NCBI GenBank assembly: GCA_036787775.1 | Contig: DAIQOR010000001.1 | Span: forward strand, 107,839 to 171,838 | DNA length: 64,000 nt | DNA from: a bacterium | Lineage (GTDB): Archaea; Nanobdellota; Nanobdellia; Pacearchaeales; GW2011-AR1 | Direction: 5' to 3' | Shown: piece after piece, positions 1 to 13,945 of the stretch | How positions within the stretch are numbered: the stretch's first letter is position 1 | How the letters are laid out: each line of letters starts with the position of its first letter | Notes under the pieces: generated by a model | Told to the model about the DNA's origin: nothing | The model's database searches: none | What the model saw: only the letters and a program-made list of their open reading frames with translations | Program-made: the position numbers and the translations under genes

Positions 1-1375
1 CAGCCATTTCATACTCTTGGTCGTTCTCTAAATCAATTCCTTCGCCATCCTCCGTAGCTAATTGAGCAGCTCTCATTGTTTGTTTGTGTTGCCATTTGAA
101 TAAATTACTTCCACCGAAGAAATACTCCATCCCCTCGAAATCAGCGCTTCTAACATAATCTATTTTACATTGTGCAGGTTCAGAAGCATTCAATCCAAAA
201 GAGAATTCCTCGAAGGCAGGAATACATCCAGTTGTAGAATCTTCATTTATTATTTTAACTTCAACACCTCTATCTGGAGGAGAAATCATTTCACCCTCGT
301 CGAATTCATATCTAAAGTTAGCAAGAAGTGCTCCATCCCAAGGTCTTAATTGAGGGGGATTAACATCTAGAGGATTTATCCAAACGCAAGCCTCGTCAGA
401 AGATCCAGGATTCACAAGTTCACAAGCCTGTCCCAAACTTCTACATTGATATTCGCTACACGGAAGAATTCCCATCTTATTACATTCATCACAAAACTTT
501 CCATCAACAGGCGGTTGCCAAACTCGACCCTCATAATTAACACTTCTTTTTGTATCTTCTTTGTAAAGAATTGCGAACGCTAAAGCAGTTGTAACAATAC
601 CAATTCCCCCTAACCAGTAAGGGTCAGCAACGCCAGCTCCATGAATTAACTCTGTAAGTCCAGTTCCAGCTCCAACAGAAGTGGTTATAGCAGTCCATAA
701 TCCTTTTTGATCATCTGGTGCAGCTGTTGCAGCAATTCCCGATACAAGAGCAATACCTCCTCCAACAGCAGCAACGGTTCCATAATGTGTTTCTTCACAC
801 GTATTTCCCTCAATACACCTAAAATTTTCTGCACAATTGCTTTTTCCTGTTTTTTTGAAATCATCATAACTACATGAGTCAGCTGGATTCGTACTCGTTT
901 TTTCTTCACATCCTTTTCCATCTGCCGTACATTTTCCACTTGGACAAGAAACTCCGCCTTTTTTCCCATCAACACATGTTTCCGCAGGACCAGTTTCAGC
1001 AGGAGGGGGTACAACTTCTTTTTCAACACATTTTCTATCAACACATTTTTTCGCTGAAGGACATTCAGAATCGGTGGTGCATTCAAAACACTTTCCGTCA
1101 TCTTTATCTGCCCAAGGAGTTGCCGCATTACAAACACAAATAGTATTCAAACCCTCAACATCGGGGCACAAATCCTCAATTGTTTGAGTAAACTCGCTTT
1201 TGGAGTTATCTTTACAAATACCCCCTGCCGCAGTACAAGAATCGGATTGAACTGGAGAAGGATTTTCAGCACCACTAACAAATCCAATTCCTCCTCCAAG
1301 AGCCCAAGCAATTGCGAAAGTTCCAACTATCAAAATCATTATTTCAGAAAGTGCAATTTGTCCTCGATTATTCAT
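1..1375 (-). CDS. Giant Cys-rich envelope protein paralog G0; 5' end complete, 3' end runs off the window; carries its own class III (pilin-like) signal peptide
   Basis: The frame is open from ATG at 1375 to the window edge, so it is absent from the ORF track. Manual translation gives MNNRGQIALSEIMILIVGTFAIAWAL..., then a short Cys-rich domain and a Gly/Ala-rich hydrophobic segment. It then reads ..RVWQPPVDGKFCDECNKMGILPCSEYQCRSLGQACELVN, the same knot motif as in 5250..8531 and 9359..13159. Confidence 0.8.
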   Translation of the reverse strand, partial: MNNRGQIALSEIMILIVGTFAIAWALGGGIGFVSGAENPSPVQSDSCTAAGGICKDNSKSEFTQTIEDLCPDVEGLNTICVCNAATPWADKDDGKCFECTTDSECPSAKKCVDRKCVEKEVVPPPAETGPAETCVDGKKGGVSCPSGKCTADGKGCEEKTSTNPADSCSYDDFKKTGKSNCAENFRCIEGNTCEETHYGTVAAVGGGIALVSGIAATAAPDDQKGLWTAITTSVGAGTGLTELIHGAGVADPYWLGGIGIVTTALAFAILYKEDTKRSVNYEGRVWQPPVDGKFCDECNKMGILPCSEYQCRSLGQACELVNPGSSDEACVWINPLDVNPPQLRPWDGALLANFRYEFDEGEMISPPDRGVEVKIINEDSTTGCIPAFEEFSFGLNASEPAQCKIDYVRSADFEGMEYFFGGSNLFKWQHKQTMRAAQLATEDGEGIDLENDQEYEMA

Positions 1376-1382
1376 TTTAATT
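1314..1382 (-). repeat. Copy A of a 69-nt direct repeat covering the signal-peptide codons of G0
   Basis: Aligns without gaps to 2008..2076. The first 23 nt (gcgaaagttccaactatcaaaat) and the last 16 nt are identical, with 13 mismatches in between. Confidence 0.85.
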
Positions 1383-1701
1383 CCTCTTTTATTTCCAACA
1401 TTGTTTTTTCCAATTCCGGAATTTTCACTTCAATAAAATTCCATATCAAATCTTTATCAATTATTTCATATCTATGACTAATAACGTTTCTTAACTTTCT
1501 AAGGTTTCTCCATTTTATATTTTTATGTTTTGATTTTATCTCTCGCGGAAGTTTCACAGAATTCTCTCCAATAGTTTGCAACCTCGTCAAAGTCATATCC
1601 AAAATATCAACATCTTTCAAAGACGCCTTACTTTTACAAGTTTTTTTAATCTTCTCAATAGATTCAATAATATTTCTGATGTAAAGATTATAATTCAACA
1701 T
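1372..1701 (-). CDS. HEPN/DUF86-family toxin of an MNT-HEPN pair
   Basis: 109-aa ORF with the R-x4-H motif (RKLRNVISHRY). Its start overlaps the stop of the upstream nucleotidyltransferase ORF. Confidence 0.8.
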   Translation of the reverse strand: MLNYNLYIRNIIESIEKIKKTCKSKASLKDVDILDMTLTRLQTIGENSVKLPREIKSKHKNIKWRNLRKLRNVISHRYEIIDKDLIWNFIEVKIPELEKTMLEIKEELK

Positions 1702-2020
1702 ATTCCACCTCGTTTTTTATATATTTTAATTCTGGAACAAGATTTTTTTCAATTACCAAATCAATCTTTTTCTTAAAAGTTTTTTCCAACAAAAATAAAA
1801 CATTAAAATAATTATCAACATCAATTTTATCAAATTCAACTAAAAAATCAATATCACTTTTTTGCTTCTGCTGATTCTTCGAATAACTTCCAAAAAGGCC
1901 AATTTTTTTAACTCCTTCCTTTTTCAATTTATCTGCCTCTTTTCTAATCATTTTCAAAATATCTTTCGAAGTTAATTTTTCTATCATCTTAAAAATATTC
2001 CCCCCTCGCGAAAGTTCCAA
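1688..2020 (-). CDS. Minimal nucleotidyltransferase (MNT) antitoxin; real start probably Met12 at 1987
   Basis: GLFGSYSKNQQKQKSDIDFLVEF is the G-S...D-x-D NTase signature. The first 11 codons of the track ORF lie in the gene stub 1989..2069 in another frame. Confidence 0.8.
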   Translation of the reverse strand: MELSRGGNIFKMIEKLTSKDILKMIRKEADKLKKEGVKKIGLFGSYSKNQQKQKSDIDFLVEFDKIDVDNYFNVLFLLEKTFKKKIDLVIEKNLVPELKYIKNEVEYVEL

Positions 2021-2069
2021 CTATCAAAATTAAAATCTGACTTATTGCGATTGTTCCTCTATTATTCAT
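1989..2069 (-). pseudogene. 26-codon stub of a G0-like class III signal-peptide gene
   Basis: Translates MNNRGTIAISQILILIVGTFARGEYF*. The first 21 aa parallel the G0 N-terminus MNNRGQIALSEIMILIVGTFA. Its ATG overlaps the stop of the MazF-like ORF (ATGA at 2066..2069). Confidence 0.7.
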
Positions 2070-2076
2070 TTTAATT
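2008..2076 (-). repeat. Copy B of the 69-nt direct repeat (see 1314..1382)
   Basis: 56 of 69 positions are identical to copy A by manual alignment. The two copies bracket the MNT/HEPN cassette. Confidence 0.85.
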
Positions 2077-2395
2077 TCAACATCTCCTTAATTTTTAAAT
2101 CAATCTCGCTTAAAATATCTTTCTCCAACTCTCCAATTTTTTTCTTAATTTTTTTCTTATCAACCACTCTTAACTGAAAAATTAATGCAATTGAATTATT
2201 CTCTAATCCATTTTTTTTTGAAGCACTTATTTCCTTCGTGTAATTATAATTCAATGCTTCGGTCTTAGAGGTAAACGGAATAACTAAAACTAAATTTACA
2301 GTTTCATCAGTCATTATAATTGCTGGACGAAAACCTTTCTGTTCATGTCCTTTAAACGAAATAAACTCAATTAAACAAATTTCTCCTTTTTTCAT
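2066..2395 (-). CDS. mazF: PemK/MazF-family toxin (mRNA interferase)
   Basis: KGEICLIEF..GHEQKGFRPAIIMTDE...VIPFTS...SIALIFQLRVVDKKKI matches the MazF/PemK signature (GdI..v.f....G.Eq.G.RPa.v...PiTs). Confidence 0.8.
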   Translation of the reverse strand: MKKGEICLIEFISFKGHEQKGFRPAIIMTDETVNLVLVIPFTSKTEALNYNYTKEISASKKNGLENNSIALIFQLRVVDKKKIKKKIGELEKDILSEIDLKIKEMLKLK

Positions 2396-2574
2396 TTCAA
2401 TGAATCTTCAAAATCTTCAAGAGCTTGATCACTCAAAAGTTCCCACTGACCAATCTCTTCTTCAAAAGTTAAATCCTTAGAGTGCTCTTTCATAAGAACC
2501 TTTTTCATCTCTTCTACGACTTTTGTAAGATTCATTATATTCTGATTAACAATTTCTAAACTAATTTGTTCCAT
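2392..2574 (-). CDS. Putative antitoxin partner of the MazF-like toxin
   Basis: 60-aa acidic ORF whose stop overlaps the toxin start by 4 nt. The call rests on position only. Confidence 0.5.
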   Translation of the reverse strand: MEQISLEIVNQNIMNLTKVVEEMKKVLMKEHSKDLTFEEEIGQWELLSDQALEDFEDSLK

Positions 2575-2688
2575 ATTTCTTTTAACCTTTGAAGATATTT
2601 AAAGTTTACCTCCTTTCATTTTTTTGTGAACACAAAAAGATAAATGAAAATTCTTTGAATTTACTTTCATTTTTAATTGATTATTCAT

Positions 2689-4404
2689 TTAAAATCCCAT
2701 CCCCTTTACTCTCTCTTCTTTTGAAGTAGTATGATCCTTAATATTCTTACCAAAACCTTCTTGCCCAATATAATTATTTTTATTTCCACAGTCTCCTAAC
2801 ATTTCAGTATTAGCTCTTTTATCTTTTAACCAATCATCTTTCAAAACGCCTTCCTTATCAAAACATTCAGTTCCAGAAGTTCTTCTCCCATAATCTCCTT
2901 GAACAATATCCCAAATCTTTCCAACATAATTCGCAGTGCATTGCCCATTCACTAAAGAACAAATTTGTTCAGCTTCATTTGGTGCATCAAGGGCTTTTTC
3001 TTCCGCAGGTTGAACCGCTACTTCATCAGTTCCTTGACTCGTCGCTGTATCTGACCAAAATTGCAAACCAGGAGCAAAAAGCGGAGCACACATTAAATCT
3101 CTATCTTCCCCCAACCAATAACAATCTCTTCTATCTGTATTCTCACAATCGTCTTCATTATTTTGCAAAACACAATCTTGCCATCTATTAACTCTACATC
3201 CTGCAGTCAAATAATAATCCCTATCAGTAATCCCACTCTTCGCTTCAGTTCTTTCATTTGTTATGCTTGATTGTATACAAACCTCTTGTCTAAAATCCGC
3301 GCAAGGCTCGACGGTAACATCACCATTATAACACACCATTCTAAAATATCTACTTCCAGGAAGATTATATTTTTCAGGTTCAAAAGTTTTAGGAGTAATT
3401 TCTCCAAGATTATTAACTTTTATTATATTCACACCTTTATTTTTACTCACAGGATTTGAAAACGCACACCAAGTTTCCCCGTGCAAATAAGTCTCACCTT
3501 CAAACTCACAATTCAAATCAACACAACTATTAACTCCTCTCTCTTCACCACAAGTGCTTCCCTCGTAATAATCACAATTTCCACAATCATCATTTCCACC
3601 ATACAAACAACTTTCCGATTTAGAATAAATTTGTTTCCAATATTCAGAATTAGAACCTTCGGGAGGTAAAAAACTATTATCATAAATATTCGCCAAGTTT
3701 CCACAACTATCTAAAAAATAAACTTCATCTTTCCCTTCGACACAAGTTGTTTCGGAAGTTGGATTACAATTTGTTTGCAATTCTTCTGCAGTGCATAAAT
3801 ATCCCTCATGGAAACTAACTTCAGTAACTTCCGAAGAAGTCATTAACTCATTACATTCTTCTCGAGTTTTCATTTCACAAGTTCGAGAAAATTCTTTATC
3901 GAAAACACACGCACCCTTCGCCTCCGAACGCGAACTCAAAATACATTGAACTTCATCCTGAATATCCTGTCTAAAATCAATATTTAATCCATACAGCGTC
4001 GACATTTTATTACATTTTATCCCTGTAACAAAACTCGCTTGATTTCCAATAAAACAACAACCTAATTGACACTGTTCAATATCTTCGGGAGATTCCTGTC
4101 TCCATAAACCTGCACTATCAACACAAGATCTTTTCGCAGTGTTACGAGTGCAAATTCCTTCATCCATATCCAAACAAGTTCCCAAAGAACAATAAGAAGT
4201 AGAAGCACAAGCAGTTGGTTGAGCAGCAGTGTATTCTCCGCCGTCGTCACATTGGTCAGCTGACGCAACATCCTGACACCAATCTCCATCGACGGTTTTT
4301 TCACAACAATAACTTGTTCCAATAGTTACCGAAGAAACAAAACTAATTAAGAACATTCCCACTAACAAAAACAATCCAATCATTATTTCTCTTTTTATTT
4401 TCAT
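2689..4404 (-). CDS. Cys-rich secreted protein G3, carrying only the N-module of the giant family
   Basis: Has an N-terminal signal/anchor and shares motifs with G1/G2: CCEK, VYFLDSCGN, HGETWC, and GDCGNKNNYIG near its C-terminus. Its ATG overlaps the stop of 4401..5198 (ATGA at 4401..4404). Confidence 0.8.
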   Translation of the reverse strand: MKIKREIMIGLFLLVGMFLISFVSSVTIGTSYCCEKTVDGDWCQDVASADQCDDGGEYTAAQPTACASTSYCSLGTCLDMDEGICTRNTAKRSCVDSAGLWRQESPEDIEQCQLGCCFIGNQASFVTGIKCNKMSTLYGLNIDFRQDIQDEVQCILSSRSEAKGACVFDKEFSRTCEMKTREECNELMTSSEVTEVSFHEGYLCTAEELQTNCNPTSETTCVEGKDEVYFLDSCGNLANIYDNSFLPPEGSNSEYWKQIYSKSESCLYGGNDDCGNCDYYEGSTCGEERGVNSCVDLNCEFEGETYLHGETWCAFSNPVSKNKGVNIIKVNNLGEITPKTFEPEKYNLPGSRYFRMVCYNGDVTVEPCADFRQEVCIQSSITNERTEAKSGITDRDYYLTAGCRVNRWQDCVLQNNEDDCENTDRRDCYWLGEDRDLMCAPLFAPGLQFWSDTATSQGTDEVAVQPAEEKALDAPNEAEQICSLVNGQCTANYVGKIWDIVQGDYGRRTSGTECFDKEGVLKDDWLKDKRANTEMLGDCGNKNNYIGQEGFGKNIKDHTTSKEERVKGMGF

Positions 4405-5198
4405 TGTATTATTCCATATCCTGGAGGCAAAACCAAACTTCGCGAAGCGAACAAAAACTTCTCCCCAGTTTTTCTATTAGTTAAAGTGTAAATTGCCGAG
4501 CCGTCAGTTTTCAAATCTTTCTCAACTTTCACATCATGATATCGGTCCATCAAGAAAGTAGTTTCAGTGTTTCCATACTTCGCTTCATCATCCAATATTT
4601 TATTAGCAATCTCCAAGAGTTCATAAATATTATTGTCCACAACTATATCAAATCCTTCATAAGTTCTATCCTCATCACCTTTTGAAACCGACAAACTTCT
4701 ATCAAAATTTACCACAACATTTTCAGGAACCAATTCAACAGTTATATCTCCTCTTCCAGATTCAATAACATAACCTTTAGATTCAAACTCCGAAACTAAA
4801 TCTTCAAAACACGATTCAGCTTTTTCAGAAATCAAACTTTCAATTTCACCCTCGACGTGATTAATTAATAACGGTTCTTGATTAACTCCTAAATCATAAT
4901 AATTATTTGTATAACTTAAATATCTAACTTTATTATCGTCGTATAAAATATAATGTTGAGGATTAACATCTCCTCCCTGAGCAGAAATAGTTACAATCGT
5001 TTGCGCTAAATCTTCTTGAATACAATTTTTAAGTTCTATTTGTGGATTTTCCAAACCACCTCCACCAACAATTAAATTTGAAAGTTCCCCGGGAGAAATA
5101 ACGAAAATCAAAACACCCGCAATAACAATAACTAAACCAATTATAATAAATATTGCAACCTGTCCTTTTTTTCCAAAACCTAATTCACACTCTTTCAT
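4401..5198 (-). CDS. Pilin-like (class III signal peptide) protein P3, paralog of P1/P2
   Basis: ..GKKGQVAIFIIIGLVIVIAGVLIF is followed by motifs shared with P1/P2 (C-I-x-D, QGGD, NQEP, HVEGE, IYTL, FLFA). Confidence 0.75.
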   Translation of the reverse strand: MKECELGFGKKGQVAIFIIIGLVIVIAGVLIFVISPGELSNLIVGGGGLENPQIELKNCIQEDLAQTIVTISAQGGDVNPQHYILYDDNKVRYLSYTNNYYDLGVNQEPLLINHVEGEIESLISEKAESCFEDLVSEFESKGYVIESGRGDITVELVPENVVVNFDRSLSVSKGDEDRTYEGFDIVVDNNIYELLEIANKILDDEAKYGNTETTFLMDRYHDVKVEKDLKTDGSAIYTLTNRKTGEKFLFASRSLVLPPGYGIIQ

Positions 5199-5219
5199 TA
5201 TTTTTATACGATATTCTCA

Positions 5220-5229
5220 TTTATAAATA
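5220..5229 (-). promoter_or_regulatory. TATA box for the P3-G3 unit
   Basis: tttataaata lies 22-31 nt upstream of the P3 ATG (5198). The same spacing is seen for P1, P2, PCNA and the primase. Confidence 0.5.
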
Positions 5230-5249
5230 TTTCACCTCAGAAAAATAAA

Positions 5250-8200
5250 TTAACGAACGATAGATATCTTTTCACAAGTTCTTTCGTTATCCCAAATGTC
5301 TCTACAAATTATATGATATGTAAATCCTTCTGTAAAAGAAAGTTGATGATTCACGTCATAAACCGAACCCATTTTCTGAGCATTATCAAAATTAAAATTA
5401 CAATCATCTGTACTATAAGCACATTGAGCTAGTTCATTAGTAATCATCTTTAAACTATTCGCTTCAGTATATTTTATCAAAATAATTGGTGCATCATCGT
5501 CAGTGTCAAGAGAAAAACTACCTTCCGCACTAACAGAATTTCCTGCATCGTCGCTACAACCAACTTTCAAAATATAATTTCCCTCAGGGATCTGGCTTAA
5601 AGTTTTAACATGAGAAATTGAGTCTGCATTTCCCAAAGAATTACCATAAAAATTTTCCAACAATCCATATATACAATCGCTCTTTCCTCCATAAGCCCCA
5701 CCAGAAGTATCGACGCTAATCACCAAAGGATTTTCCGAATTAACTGGAGAATATCTCACAAAAGGCGTCCCAAGAATTTCAGTCGAATCAATTTTCATAG
5801 AATCAATTAAAAGAGGAGAAGCACTTTGTTTAATTGTAACAATAGTTTCTTTATCCTGAACATTTCCATTTTTATCTGAACATTTCAAATAAACTTTATT
5901 TTCTGCATTCGCCAATCCTTGAATTAATATATTTGGGCAAGAAAAGGAATCATCTTCACATCCAAAAATATTTTCATCAGGCAAATCTTCAAAAATTGCA
6001 TCGGGATTTAAACTATAACGGCATTGCTTTCCAATTTCATCCAAGGTAATTTCCAAAGTAACACTATCTTCCAAAACTCCATCTTCTCCAAATTTCAAAA
6101 AATAATTATTTTTTAAAACGTCAAATTTTTCCGCCGAGCCAGTATCAATTTCAACTTTTTGAATTTTTGGAGCTCTTGTTTCAGCTTCGGGTTTAACGCA
6201 ATATGTAATTTCTTTGGCATCATAATTGGAAATTTGGTTTGCCCCCATACATTTCACATAAACAGAATATATTTTTTCTTCACTTTCTGGAGGAAGCGCA
6301 TTCATTTTTATTTTAAATTCAGTTTCCCAAGCTTGAGGCGTAGCATAAAATTCCATATTTTCATAAGAAATATATTCCTCAAAATCATATTTACAAATAG
6401 AACGAAGTTCCTGCTCATTTGTAATCTCCACATTAAAAGTTAATTCAGCACCACCCTCAACACAGGCATCTCCGCCTTCTTTTGTAAGTTTAACAATTGG
6501 TTCCTCATTTCTATTTAATTCTGTATTCAAAACACAAATTTTTTCTTGATATTCCGGACCAAGACCTCCAACCTCTAAATAATTCGCCAAGTCTCCAACA
6601 ATTTCAATCTCCTCACTCTCCGCAAATTCATCAATACTAACTTCTGGAAGAATCACACAATTTGCCCCCAAGCTTTCACATTTATATTCCGTGCAAGGAA
6701 TAATTTCTTCATTACATTTTTTACAATCAGAATCTTCAGCAATAGGCGGGCTCCAAGGGTAACAATAAGCTTTTACAGGTTGAGGATAATATCCCTTCGG
6801 ATTAGTAGTCCAAGTGCTATATCCTTCCTGGTGGCTTGCTCCTCGATCTAAATCAATGTTTGGATTAATTTTAATCAATTCTGTCGGATAAAAAATCCCC
6901 GCAGTTGGTTCTGGAGTTTGAAAGTCAGGAGTATTTTTTTCAGCATACTCTTCTGCCCCCCTTCCAACAAAATTTTCAATTAGGTCATTATCTAACTCTA
7001 AACTATCTCCTTCATTATTATTTTTTATCCCCTTAAAAAAACTTTCATAATCATAGATTGAACCACTTGTAGCTACACTTTTAAACGAAGGAGATAATTT
7101 ATCTCCTGGACCACTAATAAAAATTAAATCTTCATTATATCCTTTTTCTAATTCTGTATTAATCCATCTTCCGCAATCTCCAAACGCTGTGCACAAGTTA
7201 TTAAATTCATAAGGGTAAATCCAGTTTGAACAAAACTTATTTTTTTCTTTAGAGGTTCCATCTTGCACATATAATGGACAACTTTCGTAAACCATTCCAC
7301 AAACGTTTTCTTTTGTTATTTGTCCGCTAACTTCTGTCACTGCTTCATCCAAACTTTCAACCCTCTCAGGAGTTATATCAAATCCTATTGGAACTTTTGC
7401 AACACAAACATCATAAAGAATATGTTCAGAATCTCCCCCGTGTCTTTCTGTTATCGCAACTTTTTCAACACGGCAATCAACATTTTTTAAACAATCTTCA
7501 ACATTATCAATTCCATAACACAAACCCCCAAGATTGTCTCTGCATTGTGCTTGAGAAATAGTTGTATCCTTTCCAATTATTCTTTTTGATTCTGCACAAA
7601 TTCCGGTTCTATATTCTCCACATCTTTCAATTCTAACTTCTCCAGCAACACAAGCTGCCCTAAAATGTTCACTTCCAACGGCATCCCTACTATTTCCAGT
7701 ATATCCATCCCATAAACACCAAGTCTCTCCGTGGACTCTTTTTTTATTCAAAGTTTCCTCCGATTCCGCACATCCAAGAAATTTACATTCTGCTTCCCCC
7801 GTTTCTTCAGAACAAATATATCCATCTTCTAATTTACATTCTTCTTTAACCCCTTCTCTATTTCCTGCGGAATCAAAATAATAAACATCAGTTAAATCAT
7901 CTTCAATCGCACAACCAAGATGGTCTTTGACTACATAATCAATATCATATTTTTCTTTTATTTCGTTATCCGAACAAAATTTATTTTTTAAAAAATCTCC
8001 ATTAAGATTTCCCTTACATTCTTTTTCTGAAACTTGCGAACAGCTTTCTCCAGTAACACAAGCCCCAACATCTTCGGAAAGGTCTCTACAAGTTTCTTCT
8101 CCATCATTAGTCGTTTTCATGTCTATATTTTTTTTCTCAGAAGCAATCCTACATTTTCCTTTTTCCATCCTCTCCGTGCTACCCCCTCCTAACCAACAAC

Positions 8201-8531
8201 ACACTTCTTCACAATCATCTACAACATTTTCGCAAACACCCTGTTTCCAAATTAATCCCTCGCCAACGCAACCAGATTTATATGCCCCATTTGAACAACT
8301 TGACTCGCCTTCATTAAAACAACATCCAGTATTTTTACAAACATCAAAGTCACTACAAGGGTTAAAATCTATTCCAAAATTTCTATCACACAAATCAATT
8401 GAAGCATCTTGACAAGACGCTCCAGAAATAAGTTTCTCACAACAAACTTCTCCTTCTGCAGAAACAAAATTCAAAATAATAACTAAAAATAAAATCCCCA
8501 ATAAAATTCCTCTTTTCATATTTTTTTCCAT
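5250..8531 (-). CDS. Giant Cys-rich envelope protein G2 (1093 aa)
   Basis: Signal peptide, then N-module motifs (CCEK, YYFDSAGN, HGETWC, GSEHF, FGDCG). Next comes the knot CYPWSPPIAEDSDCKKCNEEIIPCTEYKCESLGANC, then four beta-rich repeats each ending in a KC-x-D-x-x-GN-like motif. Confidence 0.85.
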   Translation of the reverse strand: MEKNMKRGILLGILFLVIILNFVSAEGEVCCEKLISGASCQDASIDLCDRNFGIDFNPCSDFDVCKNTGCCFNEGESSCSNGAYKSGCVGEGLIWKQGVCENVVDDCEEVCCWLGGGSTERMEKGKCRIASEKKNIDMKTTNDGEETCRDLSEDVGACVTGESCSQVSEKECKGNLNGDFLKNKFCSDNEIKEKYDIDYVVKDHLGCAIEDDLTDVYYFDSAGNREGVKEECKLEDGYICSEETGEAECKFLGCAESEETLNKKRVHGETWCLWDGYTGNSRDAVGSEHFRAACVAGEVRIERCGEYRTGICAESKRIIGKDTTISQAQCRDNLGGLCYGIDNVEDCLKNVDCRVEKVAITERHGGDSEHILYDVCVAKVPIGFDITPERVESLDEAVTEVSGQITKENVCGMVYESCPLYVQDGTSKEKNKFCSNWIYPYEFNNLCTAFGDCGRWINTELEKGYNEDLIFISGPGDKLSPSFKSVATSGSIYDYESFFKGIKNNNEGDSLELDNDLIENFVGRGAEEYAEKNTPDFQTPEPTAGIFYPTELIKINPNIDLDRGASHQEGYSTWTTNPKGYYPQPVKAYCYPWSPPIAEDSDCKKCNEEIIPCTEYKCESLGANCVILPEVSIDEFAESEEIEIVGDLANYLEVGGLGPEYQEKICVLNTELNRNEEPIVKLTKEGGDACVEGGAELTFNVEITNEQELRSICKYDFEEYISYENMEFYATPQAWETEFKIKMNALPPESEEKIYSVYVKCMGANQISNYDAKEITYCVKPEAETRAPKIQKVEIDTGSAEKFDVLKNNYFLKFGEDGVLEDSVTLEITLDEIGKQCRYSLNPDAIFEDLPDENIFGCEDDSFSCPNILIQGLANAENKVYLKCSDKNGNVQDKETIVTIKQSASPLLIDSMKIDSTEILGTPFVRYSPVNSENPLVISVDTSGGAYGGKSDCIYGLLENFYGNSLGNADSISHVKTLSQIPEGNYILKVGCSDDAGNSVSAEGSFSLDTDDDAPIILIKYTEANSLKMITNELAQCAYSTDDCNFNFDNAQKMGSVYDVNHQLSFTEGFTYHIICRDIWDNERTCEKISIVR

Positions 8532-8557
8532 CTTCCCAAGTTTTTAATAATTTATAT

Positions 8558-9322
8558 TCAACAACCTAACACAGCAAATCTAAATTTATCTGTTTCCTCC
8601 GCGTGTTTAATTGTATAAACTTTTGCGCCATCTTCCGCAACAAATTTTTTCACATCAATTTCTGGATTTTTAATTATAAACTTAATTTCATCAAACTCAC
8701 ATTGAGTAGTTTCAGCATTTATTATTTTTCTAACAACTTCCAAAATTTCATAAAGATTACTTTTAAAAATCATCGCAAAATCATTCTGCGTAAAACTTTC
8801 TTCACCAGAGCTCATAGAAATTTCAGCTTCCACCGAGAGTTCAATTTGCCCATCTCTAACTTTAACATCAAATCCTTTTAGATTCTCCTCGTTAATAACA
8901 TAATTTTCTTTTTCTAAATCGTTCAAAACTTCCTCAAAACAAGTATTCAAATCTTCTTCAATATAATTTTTAATTTCTTCAGAAACATGTCCAAATAAAT
9001 CTGGTTGTTGATTCACGCAATTTTCCCGATTAATATCATAACAAAGATAAGTGTAATAATTTATTTCATCCTCATCGCTGAACTTGAACGGTTTTCTTAA
9101 AATAATTGATTCCACATATCCGCCATTCTGAATTATTAATTCCTCAGCGTCTTTAACAGAATCTTCAATACAAGTTTTCATCATGTAATCAATATTTTTC
9201 GCACCCGCTCTTGCATTCGGAGTTATCAAAGATTCGCCCTTAAAAATAAAAAACAAAGCGACAACAACCACGATAACAATCGCAATTATAATAAATATTG
9301 TAAGTTGACCTCTTTTTGACAT
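8558..9322 (-). CDS. Pilin-like (class III signal peptide) protein P2
   Basis: MSKRGQLTIFIIIAIVIVVVVALFF, then motifs shared with P1/P3 (CIED, NGGY, YLCY, NQQP, HVSEE, VYTI, FRFA). Confidence 0.75.
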   Translation of the reverse strand: MSKRGQLTIFIIIAIVIVVVVALFFIFKGESLITPNARAGAKNIDYMMKTCIEDSVKDAEELIIQNGGYVESIILRKPFKFSDEDEINYYTYLCYDINRENCVNQQPDLFGHVSEEIKNYIEEDLNTCFEEVLNDLEKENYVINEENLKGFDVKVRDGQIELSVEAEISMSSGEESFTQNDFAMIFKSNLYEILEVVRKIINAETTQCEFDEIKFIIKNPEIDVKKFVAEDGAKVYTIKHAEETDKFRFAVLGC

Positions 9323-9343
9323 GCTTTAAATAATTAAAACAAG

Positions 9344-9353
9344 TTTATAAAAT
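9344..9353 (-). promoter_or_regulatory. TATA box for the P2-G2 unit
   Basis: tttataaaat lies 22-31 nt upstream of the P2 ATG (9322), immediately after the G1 stop. Confidence 0.5.
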
Positions 9354-9358
9354 TTCTT

Positions 9359-12300
9359 CTAATCTAAAACTGCAATTTTTTGTGCACACCCAACATTCTC
9401 ATTATCTTTCAAATCTCTACATTTAATATAATGCGTTTCCCCCGGCGACCAAATAATTTCATGTTTAATTCCATTATTACTATAAGCATCTTGCCCAGAA
9501 GCAACTTCAAAATTACAAGTATCAAGTTCATAAGCGCATCTTGATTCCTCATTTGTAAAGAAAATAATTTTTCCCGCCTCATAATAAAACTCTACAATCT
9601 TTGGAGCAACATCATCAACTTTTAATTCAAAATCTATATTTCCTTCAGCAACATTTCCAGCATCGTCGGTGCATCGCACTTTCATAGAATGACTTCCCGC
9701 CCAGAAATTCAAAAACTGACGATGGCTTGTGCTCGAAGTTTCCTTAAAAACAATCCATTGCCCATTATTAAAAAACTCACATTTACTTTTCCCGTCATTA
9801 GCTCCTTTCGAAGTAGAAACTTTCAACTCAAACTCAACCGGCTGAGAAGCCTCTTCAAAATATCCCGCAGGTTCCAAAGAAGTTATCTCAAGATTATTTT
9901 CTGTAACAAAAACACTATATTCAAAATCATTCGTATTAATATTATCCTGCAAATTTTTACATTTAATAAAAATATTATTTTTCCCCGCAGTTAAATCAGT
10001 CAAAGTCCCGTCGCAAGGATAACCATTAATTCCATCATTCCCATTTAACGGGTCCAATTCACATCTCATTTCATTTGCCATGTCTTCATATTTCTTTTCT
10101 GCAATTTTATCCCATTTACATTCGGCAGGACGATTTAACCAAAGTCCCCAATTTTCCAATTTAGTTTCTCCGAATTTCAATCTATATCCTTCAGGATGCG
10201 TAAACGCTTTTATGTAAGCAGGAGTCGGGTTCGCTTCCGAATCTATACAAACATCAACCATTATCGGTTCAAAAGTCGGGTTACCATTAAAGTCCGAGCA
10301 AGTTATATACATTATTTGTTCCCCAACATAACCCGTATCAATATTTCCTTCAATATATTGCGGGTCCAAACTCGCGACACTCGGGAATTCCTCGACGCTG
10401 AAAATGTGATTTAATCTATATCTTCCTTCATCCGCCGAATTAGCTTGAGTAGATAAATAATCTTCTGGCCTTTTCCAATCCCAAGAACATTGCGAATACT
10501 CGTCAGTCTCAATAACAAAATCAACCTGCTCATATTCCGGAATGCAATTATCCCGATTAGTTCTCAACTTAAATTTATTTCCTTCAACTTGAGTCAATTT
10601 ATAACCATTTGTCAAAATTCTATAATCAACAACTTCCGGAACATTTGTTTCAAGAGGAACACTAATACAAGGAGGATTCTCGTCGCCACCTTCATTAACA
10701 ATTTGACAAAGCTGTCCCAAACTCTCACATCTATAACGCGTGCAAGGTTTCAAAGGATCCTCATTACAAACATGACAATCATCGCCACCACGAGGAGCTT
10801 CCCAAGGATAACAATAAAAATTAACAGTATCTTTTCCAACTTCACCAATACGCATGCTAGCCATGTATGAATTTACAATTATCGCGATTGCTACGAGTGC
10901 GATTGCAATTCCTGCACCCATTGGGCCCAATGTAGCTAAGATTAAACTCCAACCTGCACCTTCTGCAACAATTCCAAAATAAATTAAAAATCCTGCAGCT
11001 GCTCCACCTGTAGCGCCAGAAAAGACCATCCCACTAGCTTCTTTTCCTTCGATATTATACGTGCTAGCCATAGTCGAGCTAACGGTTGCACCAATGGATG
11101 CACCAATTAAAGCATAAGCAGAAGCTCCTAAAACTGCTCCTACACCGGCTTCCGGAAGACCTCCTGCTGAAGTTATCGCTTTCGGATCTGCTGGGAAAAA
11201 ATAAGGGCTACCATATTTTAACCAAGTAAATCCCAAACCCCCACTAACTCCTGATGCAATAGTAAGCCAACTCTCATAAGCTCTTTTAATATGATAATCA
11301 TCCCCCGTTCCCGGAGCATTAATTTCAGAAGTCCCCGCCATAAATGCTTCAAGATTTTCTAAATTTTGAGAATCAACATGTTGTCCTTCAACAGCCTTGG
11401 CATTTGCGGAATAACCAAAATGTTCTGCCCAAGATTTTTTATAAACTTCTTCCTTCACTCCCTGAACCCGAAGATTATCAGTCGTCTTTCCAATGTAATT
11501 AGTATAACTCCCACAATCCCCAAGAGAAACACAAAAATTATTCATCTGGTCAACAAATTCAATTTCTCGGCAATCACTATTTAACTGGTCGCTCCAAAAA
11601 GTTTCCATTCCAAAATCGGATTCAGTGGAAGTTTTTCTTTTTTTAATAATTGTGCAAGACATACTCGCAACCGAGCAAGTCATCGACGCGAAGTCAGGAG
11701 TTTCATCTCCATAAATCGCATCATCGAAAGGTCGCAAATCAAAACCCTGCGGATATTTCGGCAAACATATTCCAAATTTAAAACCGCTATCAACATTAAG
11801 ATATCTAAATTCACAATGCGAATTTGCTTCACAAGTTTCCTGAACGCCTGCGGGGTCATTTTGTAAATTTTCATTATACGCTTTACACAATTGGGCTTGA
11901 TTAACCACACATCGAGCAAGTGCTCTTCCCTCGCCAGTGCTCTGCTGATAAATTTCCCCTTCTTCACAAATCTCACTTCGAGCCTCACCACATTTATCAA
12001 CTTCAACTTTTCCATTTATGCAACTCGCAACCCAATGCTCACTTCCAACAGGATCGATTCCATTTCCAAGAGCACCGTCATACAAGCACCAAGTTTCCTG
12101 ATGTTTTTTCAATCCAGTTCTTCCACCATTTAATGGAGCATTCGGACAATCAATATTTCTACAAACAAAATTTCCCCCAGCAATATGCTTTTCAATACCA
12201 GTTGTTTCAACCCCAACACTTCCCGCATTTCGATTACAATTTCCACAACTGGTGCTCGCAGAATTTCCATTTTTAGAATCCGCCCCACAACTTTCCTCTT

Positions 12301-13159
12301 TACTCAAAATTTTTCCATTTGCCCAACTCGCATCTTTATTTGAAGAATAAATATTCTCCCGATTACCACAAGAATCAAACCAATAAATCTCATAAAAATC
12401 TTCTTCAAGGCCGACGCTGGCTTGTCGTTCACAATTCGAACCAACTTCTTCTGCCGAACATAAATAACCTTTGTAAAAAGTATTATCACATTTATCATCG
12501 GTCGTTCTTTGACAACTTCCGTCCGGACTAACACAAGCTCCGTCTTCCCCAAATTGCGGAATAGACAAACAGCTCAATTCCAAAATGCCCGATAAAAATT
12601 CATATTCTTTTCCCTGAATATCTGCCAAATTGCTACACATTTTTTCAGTATAAAATCCCGCTCGGTTATCAATTAAACAACAACCCATTTCACATTGCGC
12701 AACATTACATTGTGCATCAGGTTCCCAAGTCCCGTCGCATTCTCCTTCCGGCTGATTTGCATCACAAGTTCCCTCCTCATCATCAACGCAACAACCCAAT
12801 TCACAGGCAGGAGTATTTTCACAAGCAGTGTCAACAACTTCTTCACAAATTAAATTTTCCCCCTCGACAAAATTCTGACAAACCCCAAATTCTCCTCGAA
12901 GACAACACTTTTGCAAACTCTGAGCAGAAACAATTCCAATTTCTTTTATTGAAACCAAACCAACCAATACTCCCGAAACTTTTTCAAAAACTTTTAATAT
13001 TCTTTCCCCAAAATCATTTTCATATTTTACAACATTTGTTTGACTTATCGAATAACTTTCCGCCGTAACCATATTAACTAATAAACAAATCTGAACCAAA
13101 ACCACAACTAAAAATAATAAATTAATTTTCTTTCTCATATTCCTTGGGGTATCACGCAA
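9359..13159 (-). CDS. Giant Cys-rich envelope protein G1 (1266 aa; likely start Met8 at 13138)
   Basis: N-module motifs: IYWFDSCGN, HQETWC, GSEHW, LGDCGSYTNYIG. A mid-protein Gly/Ala-rich multi-helix hydrophobic region follows, then the knot YCYPWEAPRGGDDCHVCNEDPLKPCTRYRCESLGQLC and four C-x-D-x-x-GN repeats. Met8 forms an ATGA overlap with the P1 stop (13135..13138). Confidence 0.85.
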   Translation of the reverse strand: MRDTPRNMRKKINLLFLVVVLVQICLLVNMVTAESYSISQTNVVKYENDFGERILKVFEKVSGVLVGLVSIKEIGIVSAQSLQKCCLRGEFGVCQNFVEGENLICEEVVDTACENTPACELGCCVDDEEGTCDANQPEGECDGTWEPDAQCNVAQCEMGCCLIDNRAGFYTEKMCSNLADIQGKEYEFLSGILELSCLSIPQFGEDGACVSPDGSCQRTTDDKCDNTFYKGYLCSAEEVGSNCERQASVGLEEDFYEIYWFDSCGNRENIYSSNKDASWANGKILSKEESCGADSKNGNSASTSCGNCNRNAGSVGVETTGIEKHIAGGNFVCRNIDCPNAPLNGGRTGLKKHQETWCLYDGALGNGIDPVGSEHWVASCINGKVEVDKCGEARSEICEEGEIYQQSTGEGRALARCVVNQAQLCKAYNENLQNDPAGVQETCEANSHCEFRYLNVDSGFKFGICLPKYPQGFDLRPFDDAIYGDETPDFASMTCSVASMSCTIIKKRKTSTESDFGMETFWSDQLNSDCREIEFVDQMNNFCVSLGDCGSYTNYIGKTTDNLRVQGVKEEVYKKSWAEHFGYSANAKAVEGQHVDSQNLENLEAFMAGTSEINAPGTGDDYHIKRAYESWLTIASGVSGGLGFTWLKYGSPYFFPADPKAITSAGGLPEAGVGAVLGASAYALIGASIGATVSSTMASTYNIEGKEASGMVFSGATGGAAAGFLIYFGIVAEGAGWSLILATLGPMGAGIAIALVAIAIIVNSYMASMRIGEVGKDTVNFYCYPWEAPRGGDDCHVCNEDPLKPCTRYRCESLGQLCQIVNEGGDENPPCISVPLETNVPEVVDYRILTNGYKLTQVEGNKFKLRTNRDNCIPEYEQVDFVIETDEYSQCSWDWKRPEDYLSTQANSADEGRYRLNHIFSVEEFPSVASLDPQYIEGNIDTGYVGEQIMYITCSDFNGNPTFEPIMVDVCIDSEANPTPAYIKAFTHPEGYRLKFGETKLENWGLWLNRPAECKWDKIAEKKYEDMANEMRCELDPLNGNDGINGYPCDGTLTDLTAGKNNIFIKCKNLQDNINTNDFEYSVFVTENNLEITSLEPAGYFEEASQPVEFELKVSTSKGANDGKSKCEFFNNGQWIVFKETSSTSHRQFLNFWAGSHSMKVRCTDDAGNVAEGNIDFELKVDDVAPKIVEFYYEAGKIIFFTNEESRCAYELDTCNFEVASGQDAYSNNGIKHEIIWSPGETHYIKCRDLKDNENVGCAQKIAVLD

Positions 13160-13911
13160 GTTCTTATCGCCAACCTAAACCATTCCTCGCTATTTAATTC
13201 TTTGATTGTATAAATCTTAATCGAATCGCTCGTCCTAAAATAATCAATCTCAAATTCAGGGTAAGTCATCATGTACCCAAAATAATCAAAATTACAAAAC
13301 TTCGCATTTTGAAAAACAATTTGTTGAGCAACAATCGCATTATTGTAAAGTTTACTTTGAATATTTGCATTAAGTCCTTCTTGAACAGAAGTTTCCACTT
13401 TACTCAAACCAATACGAACATCAACATCCAACTTTATTTCATCCGGAATTAACTCAACATTAAAATCTTTATAATTCACATCAACTGTATAACCCTGTGC
13501 CTCATAATTTCTCCCAATCTCTTCAACACAATCTTCAACTTTTTTTCCAAGAGCATTTTTTAATTCATCTTCAAGATGACTTATCATCATAGGTTGCTGA
13601 GTAACGCACGGATTATAAAATTCTTTAGTGTAACATAAAAAAGCAACATCGTATGTTTCATCCTCGTCGGTAAATTTAAAAGTTCGATTAAAAGGATTTT
13701 CAATGTAGCCCCCCTTCGAAGAAATTTCCTGTGCCTTCTCTTTTACAGCATCTTTCAAACACAAACTCAAAAGATTATTCGGATTTTCAACTCTTCCTTC
13801 AGGATTTATCAAAGTATCTCCAGGTCCAATTAAAAAAAACAAAACAACGACAGCAATTATTATAACTGCAATAATAACAAAAATTGTAATCTGCCCCTTT
13901 TTATTATTCAT
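13135..13911 (-). CDS. Pilin-like (class III signal peptide) protein P1
   Basis: MNNKKGQITIFVIIAVIIIAVVVLFF, then motifs shared with P2/P3 (CLKD, KGGY, FLCY, TQQP, HLEDE, IYTI, FRLA). Confidence 0.75.
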   Translation of the reverse strand: MNNKKGQITIFVIIAVIIIAVVVLFFLIGPGDTLINPEGRVENPNNLLSLCLKDAVKEKAQEISSKGGYIENPFNRTFKFTDEDETYDVAFLCYTKEFYNPCVTQQPMMISHLEDELKNALGKKVEDCVEEIGRNYEAQGYTVDVNYKDFNVELIPDEIKLDVDVRIGLSKVETSVQEGLNANIQSKLYNNAIVAQQIVFQNAKFCNFDYFGYMMTYPEFEIDYFRTSDSIKIYTIKELNSEEWFRLAIRTCVIPQGI

Positions 13912-13933
13912 GACTTATATAGAAAATAGAAGC

Positions 13934-13942: not shown

Positions 13943-13945
13943 TAT

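What the first reader, a model, noticed from the sequence alone, without database searches (positions are those of the whole stretch)
1..13911. Tandem array of separately promoted cassettes: pilin-like (class III signal peptide) protein plus giant cysteine-rich envelope protein
Seen in sequence:
- Three paralogous ~255-aa ORFs, P1 13135..13911, P2 8558..9322 and P3 4401..5198, begin with a basic stretch, the tripeptide K/R-G-Q, and then about 20 uncharged hydrophobic residues (KKGQITIFVIIAVIIIAVVVLFF, KRGQLTIFIIIAIVIVVVVALFF, KKGQVAIFIIIGLVIVIAGVLIF).
- They share downstream motifs: C-[IL]-x-D, GGY, LCY, QQP, H-x-E-x-E, IYT and F-x-[FL]-A.
- Each is followed on the same strand by a huge secreted Cys-rich ORF: G1 1266 aa, G2 1093 aa, G3 571 aa.
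- The G proteins are mutually homologous (CCEK, [FW][FL]DSxGN, H[GQ]ETWC, GSEH, GDCG..NYIG).
- P1/G1 and P3/G3 overlap as ATGA, which suggests translational coupling.
- Each P gene has its own TATA element 22-31 nt upstream of its ATG, so these are three parallel transcription units.
- A fourth family member, G0 (1..1375), carries the K/R-G-Q leader itself.

Established knowledge: a basic residue, G, then Q at +1 and a hydrophobic helix is the class III signal peptide pattern. It is processed by archaeal prepilin peptidases (PibD/FlaK/EppA).

Inference: this may be a multi-copy surface module in which a pilin-like subunit anchors, presents or chaperones a disulfide-rich giant protein, for example for adhesion or host contact in an episymbiotic archaeon. 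No assembly ATPase, platform protein or prepilin peptidase is present in this window. I do not recognise either P or G as a named family.
Basis: partly seen in the sequence, partly recalled or inferred. Interest (0 to 1): 0.9.

Follow-up and report, generated by a model that had tools for sequence, protein, structure and literature searches.

The report
Conserved DPANN surface-protein gene cassettes
Three back-to-back gene pairs each encode a small membrane-tethered protein and a giant cysteine-rich surface protein; the same pairing recurs beside the PCNA gene in the 77 Woesearchaeota/Pacearchaeota genome loci examined, belongs to no described family, and probably builds part of the cell surface.

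Summary
On the minus strand, downstream of PCNA, lie three paralogous cassettes: P1-G1, P2-G2 and P3-G3. G3 is only the N-terminal half of a G protein. G0 is the matching C-terminal half, not a fourth family member, and three toxin-antitoxin genes have been inserted between them.

P (about 255 aa) and G (about 1100-1260 aa) have no significant Pfam, NCBIfam or PHROGs match and no relative among PDB sequences. P also has no PDB fold match.

In 77 species-level genome loci the order PCNA-P-G recurs. In 123 of 129 cases the P gene is followed by a gene with the G N-module, usually 1 nt apart or overlapping as ATGA. A TATA box lies 27-29 nt upstream of 46 of 112 P start codons.

P carries a strongly conserved prepilin-like leader ([KR][GA]Q-V-T-I-F). 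Its model, however, shows a transmembrane helix, a disordered tether and a disulfide-bonded head, not a pilin fold, and no pilus machinery is linked.

G has a Sec signal, a Cys-rich N-module, a Gly/Ala-rich membrane segment (absent from G2) and four Ig-like domains.

The best reading is a membrane-tethered P-G surface complex serving as coat or adhesin. Its function is untested. The pilus-presentation idea is only weakly supported.

The parts
13135..13911 (-). P1, 258 aa. Leader MNNKKG|Q, a transmembrane helix, a flexible tether and a disulfide-bonded alpha/beta head.
   Evidence: ORF. AlphaFold2 model with pLDDT 86.5. Family conservation. No Pfam, NCBIfam, PHROGs or PDB relative.
9359..13138 (-). 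G1, 1259 aa from ATG 13138 (ATGA overlap with the P1 stop). It has a Sec signal, a Cys-rich N-module, a Gly/Ala-rich multi-pass membrane region at about residues 625-765, and a C-module of Ig-like domains.
   Evidence: There are 209 homologs, all hypothetical proteins of Pacearchaeota, Nanoarchaeota or unclassified archaea.
8558..9322 (-). P2, 254 aa, paralog of P1.
   Evidence: An ortholog (50% identical) sits at the same position in L001.
5250..8531 (-). G2, 1093 aa. It has a Sec signal, the N-module, a disordered linker with no membrane segment, a small Cys-rich domain and four Ig-like domains.
   Evidence: AlphaFold2 model with pLDDT 74.5. Foldseek hits go only to Ig/FN3 arrays, including S-layer proteins 8cka and 7ptp.
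4401..5198 (-). P3, 265 aa, paralog of P1. It has lost two of the three Cys pairs, both partners of each pair together.
2689..4404 (-). G3, 571 aa. Sec signal plus N-module only, with 40 Cys. ATGA overlap with the P3 stop.
   Evidence: Orthologs of 490-600 aa follow the second P gene in most relatives.
1..1375 (-). G0, at least 458 aa and running off the window. It is the C-terminal half of the split cassette-3 G protein: an N-terminal membrane helix, a Cys-rich stretch, a Gly-rich membrane hairpin and the start of the C-module.
   Evidence: Orthologs follow directly after the G3-type gene in L002, L007, L008 and L009.
13912..13945 (-). P1 promoter: TTTTATAA about 30 nt upstream of the ATG, in the 34-nt gap after the PCNA gene.
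   Evidence: The position is conserved in relatives.
9323..9358 (-). P2 promoter: TTTTATAA about 30 nt upstream of the ATG.
5199..5249 (-). P3 promoter: TTTATAAA about 29 nt upstream of the ATG.
1372..2395 (-). Inserted toxin-antitoxin genes, not part of the module: PemK/MazF 2066-2395, MNT 1688-2020, HepT 1372-1701. The MNT-HepT pair is bracketed by 69-nt direct repeats of the 5' end of G0.
13946..14671 (-). PCNA, the conserved upstream neighbour that marks the locus.
   Evidence: PCNA precedes the first P gene in about 55 of 77 loci, and most of the remaining loci are cut short upstream.

Best explanation
Each cassette is a two-gene operon with its own promoter and probably a leaderless transcript. 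I think it produces one heteromeric complex on the outer face of the membrane.

**Shown**
- P and G are co-oriented, 1 nt apart or overlapping, and P always precedes the G gene that carries the N-module.
- The locus is fixed beside PCNA across Woesearchaeota and Pacearchaeota.
- P has a short basic leader, [KR][GA]-Q, then a helix with a conserved face (Q1, T3, F5, A/G9), then a disordered tether, then a globular head whose Cys residues are lost in pairs.
- G has a Sec signal peptide, an N-module of about 450 aa with about 40 conserved Cys, and four Ig-like domains.
- G has no C-terminal anchor. It is either held by an internal Gly/Ala-rich membrane region (G1, G0) or has no membrane segment at all (G2, G3).

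**Inferred**
- P is exported and, probably after cleavage before the Gln by the class III signal peptidase, stays in the membrane by its helix.
- The head of P binds the N-module of its cognate G. It thereby tethers or stabilises G, and is the only tether for G2 and G3.
- The Ig-like array projects outward as the exposed, faster-evolving part.
- The complex serves as a cell-surface coat or adhesion layer.
For: **Linkage**
- 113 of 129 P genes are followed within 400 nt by an N-module gene. In 10 more the next gene is also an N-module gene, but its start was called late. The modal gaps are +1 and -4 nt.
- The gene order PCNA-P-G(-P-GN-GC) holds in 77 species-level loci and in six annotated metagenome loci.

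**Own promoter**
- TTTAWA starts at -29 or -27 in 46 of 112 P genes.

**Cognate pairing**
- P1-type pairs with G1-type 31 times and P3-type with G3-type 68 times, against 24 discordant pairs.

**Topology**
- G1, G2 and G3 have Sec-type N-termini. G2 and G3 have no other hydrophobic segment. None of 121 G homologs has a C-terminal membrane segment.

**P outside the cell**
- Four Cys are 99% conserved. A third pair (C206/C252) is lost together in P3, P0010 and P0013.

**Structure**
- P1 model: pLDDT 86.5, helix 4-27, residues 28-39 below pLDDT 50.
- G2 C-module: tandem beta-sandwiches that match Ig/FN3 arrays, including S-layer proteins and adhesins.

**Evolutionary rate**
- Between the window and its closest relative L001, P and G are 37-72% identical. 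The neighbouring surface proteins are 48-49% identical. PCNA and primase are 77-80% identical.
Against: - No direct evidence that P and G touch. No complex prediction could be run.
- The conserved polar residues of the G N-module (D220, N224, E226, E269, S287, R308) could mark an enzymatic or ligand-binding site rather than a P-binding surface.
- G1 has its own membrane region yet still keeps a P partner, so tethering cannot be the whole role of P.
- A Cys content of 5-7% is unusual for archaeal coat proteins.
- Woesearchaeota MAGs already carry other genes annotated as S-layer proteins (PMC11606122), and the window holds other large Ig-like surface proteins.
Confidence: 0.5

Rival explanations
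1. Pilus presentation. P is a minor or tip pilin: its helix enters a type IV-like filament built elsewhere in the genome and displays G at the tip or along the shaft, as bacterial minor pilins display PilY1.
For: - The leader meets the class III rule, and Q+1, T+3, F+5 and A/G+9 are conserved like a pilin N-terminus.
- Another class III-like protein is encoded in the window at 40928-41545.
- Archaellin genes are expressed in Woesearchaeota (PMC11606122), so a class III peptidase is likely to be present.
Against: - The helix is only about 24 residues long and is followed by a disordered tether. It does not run on into, or pack against, the head.
- No fold match to any pilin.
- No archaeal pilin N-terminal Pfam or NCBIfam model matches in 148 members.
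- No ATPase, platform protein or peptidase in the window ORFs scanned or in six annotated loci.
Confidence: 0.12
2. Two-component S-layer. G is the lattice-forming canopy and P the membrane stalk, analogous to SlaA/SlaB of Sulfolobales.
For: - The locus is present and fixed across the clade, with a strong, precisely placed TATA box.
- Adjacent co-transcribed large and small genes.
- Ig-like arrays resemble the S-layer proteins 7ptp and 8cka.
Against: - Two or three diverged cassettes per genome, rather than one dominant coat gene.
- An internal multi-pass membrane region and 5-7% Cys are unlike known S-layer proteins.
- TM-scores to S-layer structures are low (0.14-0.15) and reflect only generic Ig domains.
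- Other S-layer-annotated genes exist in these organisms (PMC11606122).
Confidence: 0.18
3. P is a dedicated maturation factor, not a structural partner. It would be a membrane-anchored chaperone, stabiliser or inhibitor needed for folding or disulfide formation of the Cys-rich N-module, as YpeB is needed for SleB in Bacillus spores.
For: - P always precedes the N-module gene, never the C-module gene.
- The N-module has about 20 predicted disulfides.
- P has repeated helix-plus-three-strand units.
- A DPANN-specific 'double PepSY/YpeB-like' dark-matter cluster has been reported (PMC6393860). Whether that cluster is P is unknown.
Against: - No CxxC or other redox motif in P. Only two conserved acidic residues, and one of them (E202) is not kept in P1-P3.
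- No PepSY match by HMMER in 148 members, and none among the top Foldseek hits.
- Co-divergence of cognate pairs fits a stable partner at least as well.
Confidence: 0.13
4. The N-terminus of P is an ordinary uncleaved signal anchor, and the [KR][GA]Q pattern is lineage-specific sequence conservation unrelated to prepilin processing.
For: - No pilin model matches.
- No linked peptidase was found.
- The G0 orthologs show that a conserved N-terminal membrane helix can exist here without [KR]GQ.
Against: - Gln at +1 in 97% and G/A/S at -1 in all 130 motif-bearing sequences tallied, preceded by K/R, at a fixed short distance from the start (median position 8).
- This is the pattern that class III peptidases require, and it is not needed for membrane anchoring.
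Confidence: 0.3

Closest known systems
Archaeal class III (prepilin-type) signal peptide proteins that are not pilins, such as the Sulfolobales sugar-binding proteins of the bindosome
   Same: A short basic leader, G/A at -1 and a hydrophobic helix, followed by a linker and a large globular non-pilin domain. These genes sit away from the filament machinery genes (bioRxiv 10.64898/2026.04.22.720090).
   Different: The head of P is not a substrate-binding fold and has no PDB match. P is obligatorily paired with a giant Cys-rich protein rather than with an ABC transporter. Cleavage has not been shown.
Minor pilin plus large adhesin modules (bacterial PilY1 with minor pilins; modular pilins such as Streptococcus sanguinis PilB, PMC8179133)
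   Same: A small protein with a prepilin-type leader is encoded next to, or fused with, a large adhesive surface module.
   Different: No pilin fold in P and no linked pilus genes. G has its own Sec signal and, in most members, its own membrane region.
SlaA/SlaB two-component S-layer of Sulfolobales, and Ig-domain S-layer proteins (Haloferax volcanii csg, PDB 7ptp)
   Same: Adjacent co-transcribed genes for a large outer protein and a small membrane-anchored protein. Tandem Ig-like domains.
   Different: P anchors by an N-terminal helix, not by the C-terminal helix and coiled-coil stalk of SlaB (recalled from the literature, not checked here). G is Cys-rich and polytopic. There are several diverged cassettes per genome. 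No sequence similarity.
YpeB-SleB (Bacillus): a membrane-anchored PepSY-repeat protein co-expressed with, and required for the stability of, its partner
   Same: An N-terminal membrane helix plus repeated alpha+beta units, a bicistronic arrangement, and a likely dependence between the partners.
   Different: No PepSY match by HMMER or Foldseek. The partner is not a lytic enzyme. This resemblance is recalled from the literature and was not tested beyond those two searches.

Membership tests
Archaeal type IV pilin / class III signal peptide proteins | A short positively charged leader, K/R at -2, G/A at -1, then about 20 uncharged hydrophobic residues (the FlaFind-type rule). | tested here: met
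   P1, P2 and P3 pass a FlaFind-like scan of all window ORFs. 136 of 157 family members carry the motif; among the 130 tallied in the position logo, -1 is G 101, A 25, S 4; -2 is R 61, K 54; +1 is Q in all 130.
Archaeal type IV pilin / class III signal peptide proteins | A match to curated N-terminal pilin or archaellin models (PF04021, PF07790, PF16982, PF01917, TIGR02537). | tested here: not met
   None of these models appears at E <= 1 for P1-P3, nor among the 25 most frequently matched Pfam families in 148 family members. These short models have low power.
Archaeal type IV pilin / class III signal peptide proteins | A pilin fold: a long N-terminal helix that continues into and packs against the globular (beta-sandwich or alpha-beta roll) domain. 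| tested here: not met
   The model has helix 4-27, residues 28-39 at pLDDT below 50, and then a separate alpha/beta head. The best Foldseek PDB hit has E 0.0098 and TM 0.12, and no pilin appears among the hits.
Archaeal type IV pilin / class III signal peptide proteins | Genomic linkage to a filament ATPase, a platform protein or a class III signal peptidase. | tested here: not met
   None among about 40 window ORFs scanned, nor in the Pfam-annotated genes of L001-L009. Whole genomes could not be examined.
Archaeal type IV pilin / class III signal peptide proteins | Cleavage between G/A and +1 by PibD, FlaK or EppA. | not testable with these tools
   This needs N-terminal proteomics or an in vitro peptidase assay.
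Archaeal S-layer proteins | A secreted large protein built of beta-sandwich (Ig-like) domains. | tested here: met
   Sec-type N-termini on G1-G3. The C-module of G2 models as four beta-sandwiches and matches Ig/FN3 arrays, including 7ptp and 8cka.
Archaeal S-layer proteins | A dominant, very abundant envelope protein that forms a regular lattice. | not testable with these tools
   No expression or imaging data. Having 2-3 diverged cassettes per genome argues mildly against it.
PepSY / YpeB-like membrane-anchored proteins | Detectable PepSY domains (PF03413 and relatives). | tested here: not met
   No PepSY family among the 25 most frequently matched Pfam families in 148 P members at E <= 1, nor among the top 50 Foldseek PDB hits. 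A profile-profile search against Pfam or PDB was not available.
Any Pfam, NCBIfam or PHROGs family (G proteins) | A score above the curated threshold. | tested here: not met
   Only sub-threshold Big_13/DUF4625 hits in the last Ig-like domain (E about 0.01-0.02, 16-17 bits against a cutoff of 27). Nothing in NCBIfam. Nothing in PHROGs for G1-G3, and one weak hit to an unknown-function family for G0 (E 0.0011). The N-module profile has no relative among PDB sequences.

The most novel reading that the evidence does not exclude
P-G may be a previously unrecognised envelope machine specific to Woesearchaeota and Pacearchaeota, dedicated to contact with another cell.
- The prepilin-processed P helix and the glycine-zipper-like Gly/Ala-rich region of G would assemble within the membrane.
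- That hydrophobic region would either form a pore or insert into the partner cell's membrane. The region is placed exactly where the protein is split into two genes in many genomes.
- The disulfide-locked N-module and the Ig-like array would provide recognition.

If so, this would be the long-sought molecular basis of DPANN attachment or cytoplasmic bridging, built from folds with no known relatives.
Probability: 0.12. Interest if true: 0.9.

Novelty: new variant of a known kind. Interest (0 to 1): 0.6.

Why it matters
Woesearchaeota and Pacearchaeota are among the most widespread uncultured archaea. They are thought to live attached to other cells, yet almost nothing is known about their envelope or attachment proteins.

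- **A concrete target.** This module is fixed in the genome, duplicated, separately promoted, and found in every one of the 77 related loci examined. That makes it a strong candidate for a core surface structure.
- **Uncharted folds.** Neither protein family is covered by Pfam or NCBIfam. The P model is confident yet has no PDB fold relative, so it is a good target for structural work.
- **Class III signal peptides.** If P is cleaved, the known use of these signal peptides on non-filament proteins would extend into DPANN.
- **Testable handles.** The module offers N-terminal proteomics of P, P-G co-purification, and immunolabelling in enrichment cultures.

Tried and rejected
- **Family libraries.** Pfam, NCBIfam and PHROGs scans of all seven proteins found nothing above threshold. 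A Pfam scan of 148 P-family members gave only noise driven by the membrane helix, with no pilin or PepSY family.
- **PDB sequence profiles.** The P family and the G N-module have no relatives. A weak archaeal flagellin hit (5tfy, E 1.2) covers only the N-terminal helix, and I discarded it.
- **Foldseek, P1 against PDB.** Nothing significant.
- **Foldseek, G2 against PDB and BFVD.** The lists are filled by generic Ig/FN3 arrays that match the C-module, so the N-module could not be assessed separately.
- **Single-sequence homolog search with G2.** Only G2 itself and one ortholog were found. A profile of 18 G sequences was needed to reach 209 homologs.
- **Virus or mobile-element origin.** Rejected. 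The locus sits between cellular PCNA/primase and housekeeping genes, is syntenic across 77 genomes, and has no PHROGs hits.
- **Fusexin or class I fusion protein analogy.** Considered because of the Gly/Ala-rich hydrophobic segment. There are no heptad repeats, no C-terminal anchor and no supporting structural hit, so I kept it only as the low-probability novel case.
- **Literature.** Searches found no description of these families. The DPANN dark-matter clusters in PMC6393860 could not be mapped to P or G, because the supplement held no identifiers.
- **Class III peptidase.** I could not test whether genomes carrying P encode one.

Full report
**Setting**

The window is archaeal and AT-rich (about 35% G+C). 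It carries an archaeal rRNA operon, RNase P RNA and two tRNAs. Named relatives of the proteins discussed here come from Pacearchaeota, Woesearchaeota and 'Nanoarchaeota' MAGs, that is, DPANN archaea.

**Observation**

All genes of the finding lie on the minus strand, downstream of a PCNA gene at 13946-14671. In order they are:

| Gene | Coordinates |
|---|---|
| P1 | 13135-13911 |
| G1 | 9359-13138 |
| P2 | 8558-9322 |
| G2 | 5250-8531 |
| P3 | 4401-5198 |
| G3 | 2689-4404 |
| three small genes | 1372-2395 |
| G0 | 1-1375, open at the window edge |

- P1, P2 and P3 are 31-36% identical over their full length.
- G1 and G2 share two separate homologous blocks, an N-module (E 5e-27) and a C-module (E 3e-34).
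- G3 aligns only to the N-module (E 3e-36).
- G0 aligns only to the hydrophobic region and the C-module (E 5e-19).
- Cys content is 5.0-7.0% in the G proteins and 1.1-2.4% in the P proteins.
- The ATGA overlaps of P1/G1 and P3/G3 and the TATA-like elements are present as described.

The three small genes between G3 and G0 are a PemK/MazF toxin, a minimal nucleotidyltransferase (MNT) and a HepT/HEPN RNase. The MNT-HepT pair is flanked by a 69-nt direct repeat of the 5' end of G0. This is a secondary insertion.

**Conservation elsewhere**

P1 alone retrieved only 13 proteins through the word-indexed search. A profile search of 1.84 billion cluster representatives found far more:

| E-value cutoff | Proteins found |
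|---|---|
| <= 1e-3 | 7122 |
| <= 1e-10 | 2864 |
| <= 1e-30 | 569 |

The listed hits are nearly all 250-290 aa. A profile of 18 G sequences found 209 proteins, mostly 1100-1400 aa, all unnamed or 'hypothetical'.

Six metagenome loci around P homologs show the same order. Primase lies on one strand. On the other strand lie PCNA, P, a G of about 1250 aa, a second P, then an N-module gene of about 540 aa followed by a C-module gene of 700-950 aa.

A scan of species-representative genomes found 316 confirmed relatives. I analysed 77 of these loci with HMMs for P, the N-module, the C-module and PCNA.
- 129 P genes were found.
- 113 are followed within 400 nt by an N-module gene.
- In 10 more the next gene is also an N-module gene, but its start was called late.
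- 4 are followed by a contig end.
- The commonest spacings are +1 nt (34 cases) and -4 nt (19 cases).
- Loci hold one to three cassettes. The simplest form is PCNA-P-GN-GC.

When cassettes are classified by best match to the window paralogs, P1-type goes with G1-type 31 times and P3-type with G3-type 68 times. Discordant pairs number 24. The partners have largely diverged together.

**Promoters**

I aligned 112 P genes on their start codons. TTTAWA starts at -29 in 36 genes and at -27 in 10, with 0-3 occurrences at every other position from -70 to -6. Archaeal TATA boxes are centred about 26-27 nt upstream of the transcription start (established knowledge). Each P gene therefore very probably has its own promoter and a leaderless or nearly leaderless mRNA. 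The G genes, 1 nt away or overlapping, must be co-transcribed.

**What P is**

Across the 136 family members that carry the motif (130 of them tallied position by position), the N-terminus reads K-[RK]-[GA]-Q-[VI]-T-[IL]-F-[IV]-I-[IV]-[AG]. In the 153-sequence family alignment, Q is 97% and F 93% conserved. The -1 residue sits at median position 8. This fits the class III signal peptide rule.

The conserved stripe Q1/F5/A-G9 lies on one face of the helix. That points to a specific helix-helix or enzyme contact rather than simple anchoring (inference).

The AlphaFold2 model (14 sequences, pLDDT 86.5, pTM 0.77) shows:
- helix 4-27;
- a low-confidence tether, residues 28-39 below pLDDT 50;
- an alpha/beta head of three helix-plus-strands units.

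Four Cys are 99% conserved. A further pair (C206/C252) is present in 74% of members and is lost jointly in P3, P0010 and P0013. This indicates disulfides and an extracytoplasmic head.

Foldseek against the PDB gave no hit better than E 0.0098, with TM-scores near 0.13. A family profile found no relative among PDB sequences. No Pfam family, including the pilin N-terminal and PepSY models, appears among the commonest matches in 148 members.

P therefore has a prepilin-type leader but is not a pilin by fold. It resembles the class III-signal proteins that are not filament subunits, such as the Sulfolobales binding proteins (bioRxiv 10.64898/2026.04.22.720090).

**What G is**

- G1, G2 and G3 start with Sec-type signal peptides, such as ...NFVSA|EGEVCCEK.
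- The N-module (about 450 aa) has about 40 Cys that are at least 90% conserved, plus the motifs DSCGN.EN, GE.WC, GS.H and GDCG..N. Its profile has no PDB sequence relative.
- Between the modules, G1-type proteins have a region of about 220 aa with 28% Gly+Ala and two to six hydrophobic segments. G2 and its ortholog P0015 have none.
- None of 121 homologs has a C-terminal membrane segment.
- G2 is fully secreted, so the C-module must be extracellular. The G1 region must therefore cross the membrane an even number of times (inference).
- The G2 model (61 sequences, pLDDT 74.5) shows a folded N-module, a disordered linker at residues 487-578, a small Cys-rich domain and four beta-sandwich domains.
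- Foldseek hits, with E down to 5e-11, are all tandem Ig/FN3 arrays: cadherins, the grappling-hook protein GhpA, the S-layer proteins 8cka and 7ptp, and phage tail and decoration proteins. These hits masked any signal from the N-module.

The G0 orthologs begin ...LAISQILILIVGIIAISYAIGS without a conserved [KR]GQ. The 'RGQ' of the window's G0 is therefore probably incidental.

**No linked machinery**

About 40 further window ORFs are housekeeping, transport, toxin-antitoxin or other surface proteins. None is a type IV filament ATPase, platform protein or A24 peptidase. The annotated relatives' loci also have none.

A second class III-like protein is encoded at 40928-41545. Woesearchaeota also express archaellin genes (PMC11606122). 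A class III peptidase in the lineage is therefore plausible but was not shown here.

**Interpretation**

The invariant P-then-N-module order, the tight coupling, the co-divergence and the lack of any anchor on G2 and G3 are best explained by a 1:1 extracellular complex. In it, the membrane-tethered P binds the N-module of its cognate G. The Ig-like array would be the exposed part.

P and G are 37-72% identical between the window and its nearest relative. PCNA and primase are 80% and 77% identical, and two neighbouring surface proteins are 49% and 48% identical. This is the usual rate for surface proteins, and G2 is the fastest-evolving member.

I put 0.5 on this general model. Whether the complex is a coat, an adhesin for host or particle contact, or both, cannot be decided with the data at hand.

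The rivals are:
- true pilus-tip display (0.12);
- a two-component S-layer (0.18);
- P as a maturation factor (0.13).

A separate open question is whether the leader is cleaved at all. I put 0.3 on its being uncleaved.

**Novelty**

No paper in the searchable library describes these families. The DPANN 'dark matter' clusters listed in PMC6393860 may overlap with them, but I could not map them.

The kind of thing is familiar: a surface complex of a small anchored subunit and a large Ig-domain protein, with a class III leader on a non-pilin. The families, the P fold, the Cys-rich N-module, the internal Gly/Ala-rich membrane region and the fixed, duplicated cassette next to PCNA are new. I therefore rate it a new variant of a known kind.

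Noticed in passing
window 1314-2697: Three toxin-antitoxin genes are inserted between the two halves of the split G gene: PemK/MazF at 2066-2395, MNT at 1688-2020 and HepT at 1372-1701. The MNT-HepT pair is bracketed by a 69-nt direct repeat (81% identical) of the 5' end of G0, at 1314-1382 and 2008-2076, with a third partial copy at 2669-2697 just after the G3 stop. The upstream copy encodes MNNRGTIAISQILILIVGTFA, which is closer to the ortholog consensus than G0's own start. HEPN/MNT pairs also sit inside the P-G array of L004. This suggests repeated cassette insertion at this site.
   Followed up: partly
window 52433-56022, ORF 53498-53995 (-): The 23S rRNA gene spans 3590 nt against a 2987-nt model. 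It contains an ORF for a LAGLIDADG homing endonuclease (E 2e-23), so this is an rRNA intron.
   Followed up: partly
window 40928-41545 (-): A 205-aa ORF whose N-terminus (...SRKAAMEMSMGTIVTIVLLM...) fits the class III signal rule. It has no Pfam match. It may be a real pilin, and it lies next to tRNA-Phe and RNase P RNA.
   Followed up: no
window 16322-18178 (+), 18222-19316 (+), 20975-22186 (-): Three more secreted proteins with C-terminal membrane anchors and Cys-rich stretches. The first two lie on the other side of PCNA/primase. The first two are conserved in synteny with the P-G locus in relatives (28-49% identity). The 618-aa protein gives a weak Flp1_like hit over its C-terminal helix.
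   Followed up: partly
window 33038-36622 (+): A 1194-aa protein made of Ig-like domains (Bact_surface_Ig-like, Big_13, Big_7, PKD-like). It is another candidate coat or adhesin protein of this organism.
   Followed up: no
window 43199-44270 (+): A second MNT plus HEPN gene pair, directly upstream of a P-type cation ATPase and a Na/Ca exchanger.
   Followed up: no
window 38256-39539 (-): A RuBisCO large-subunit homolog (E 6e-90) in a small-genome archaeon. It is presumably the form III enzyme of the nucleotide-salvage pathway known from DPANN.
   Followed up: no
window 14757-16277 (+): The primase appears to be a fusion. A single 506-aa ORF gives a small-subunit domain hit and a weak large-subunit domain hit. 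It is divergently transcribed from PCNA.
   Followed up: no
L082 (DAOTCN010000002.1): A contig labelled 'Candidatus Paceibacterota bacterium' carries the archaeal PCNA-P-G locus. The MAG is probably misclassified, with Paceibacterota confused with Pacearchaeota.
   Followed up: no
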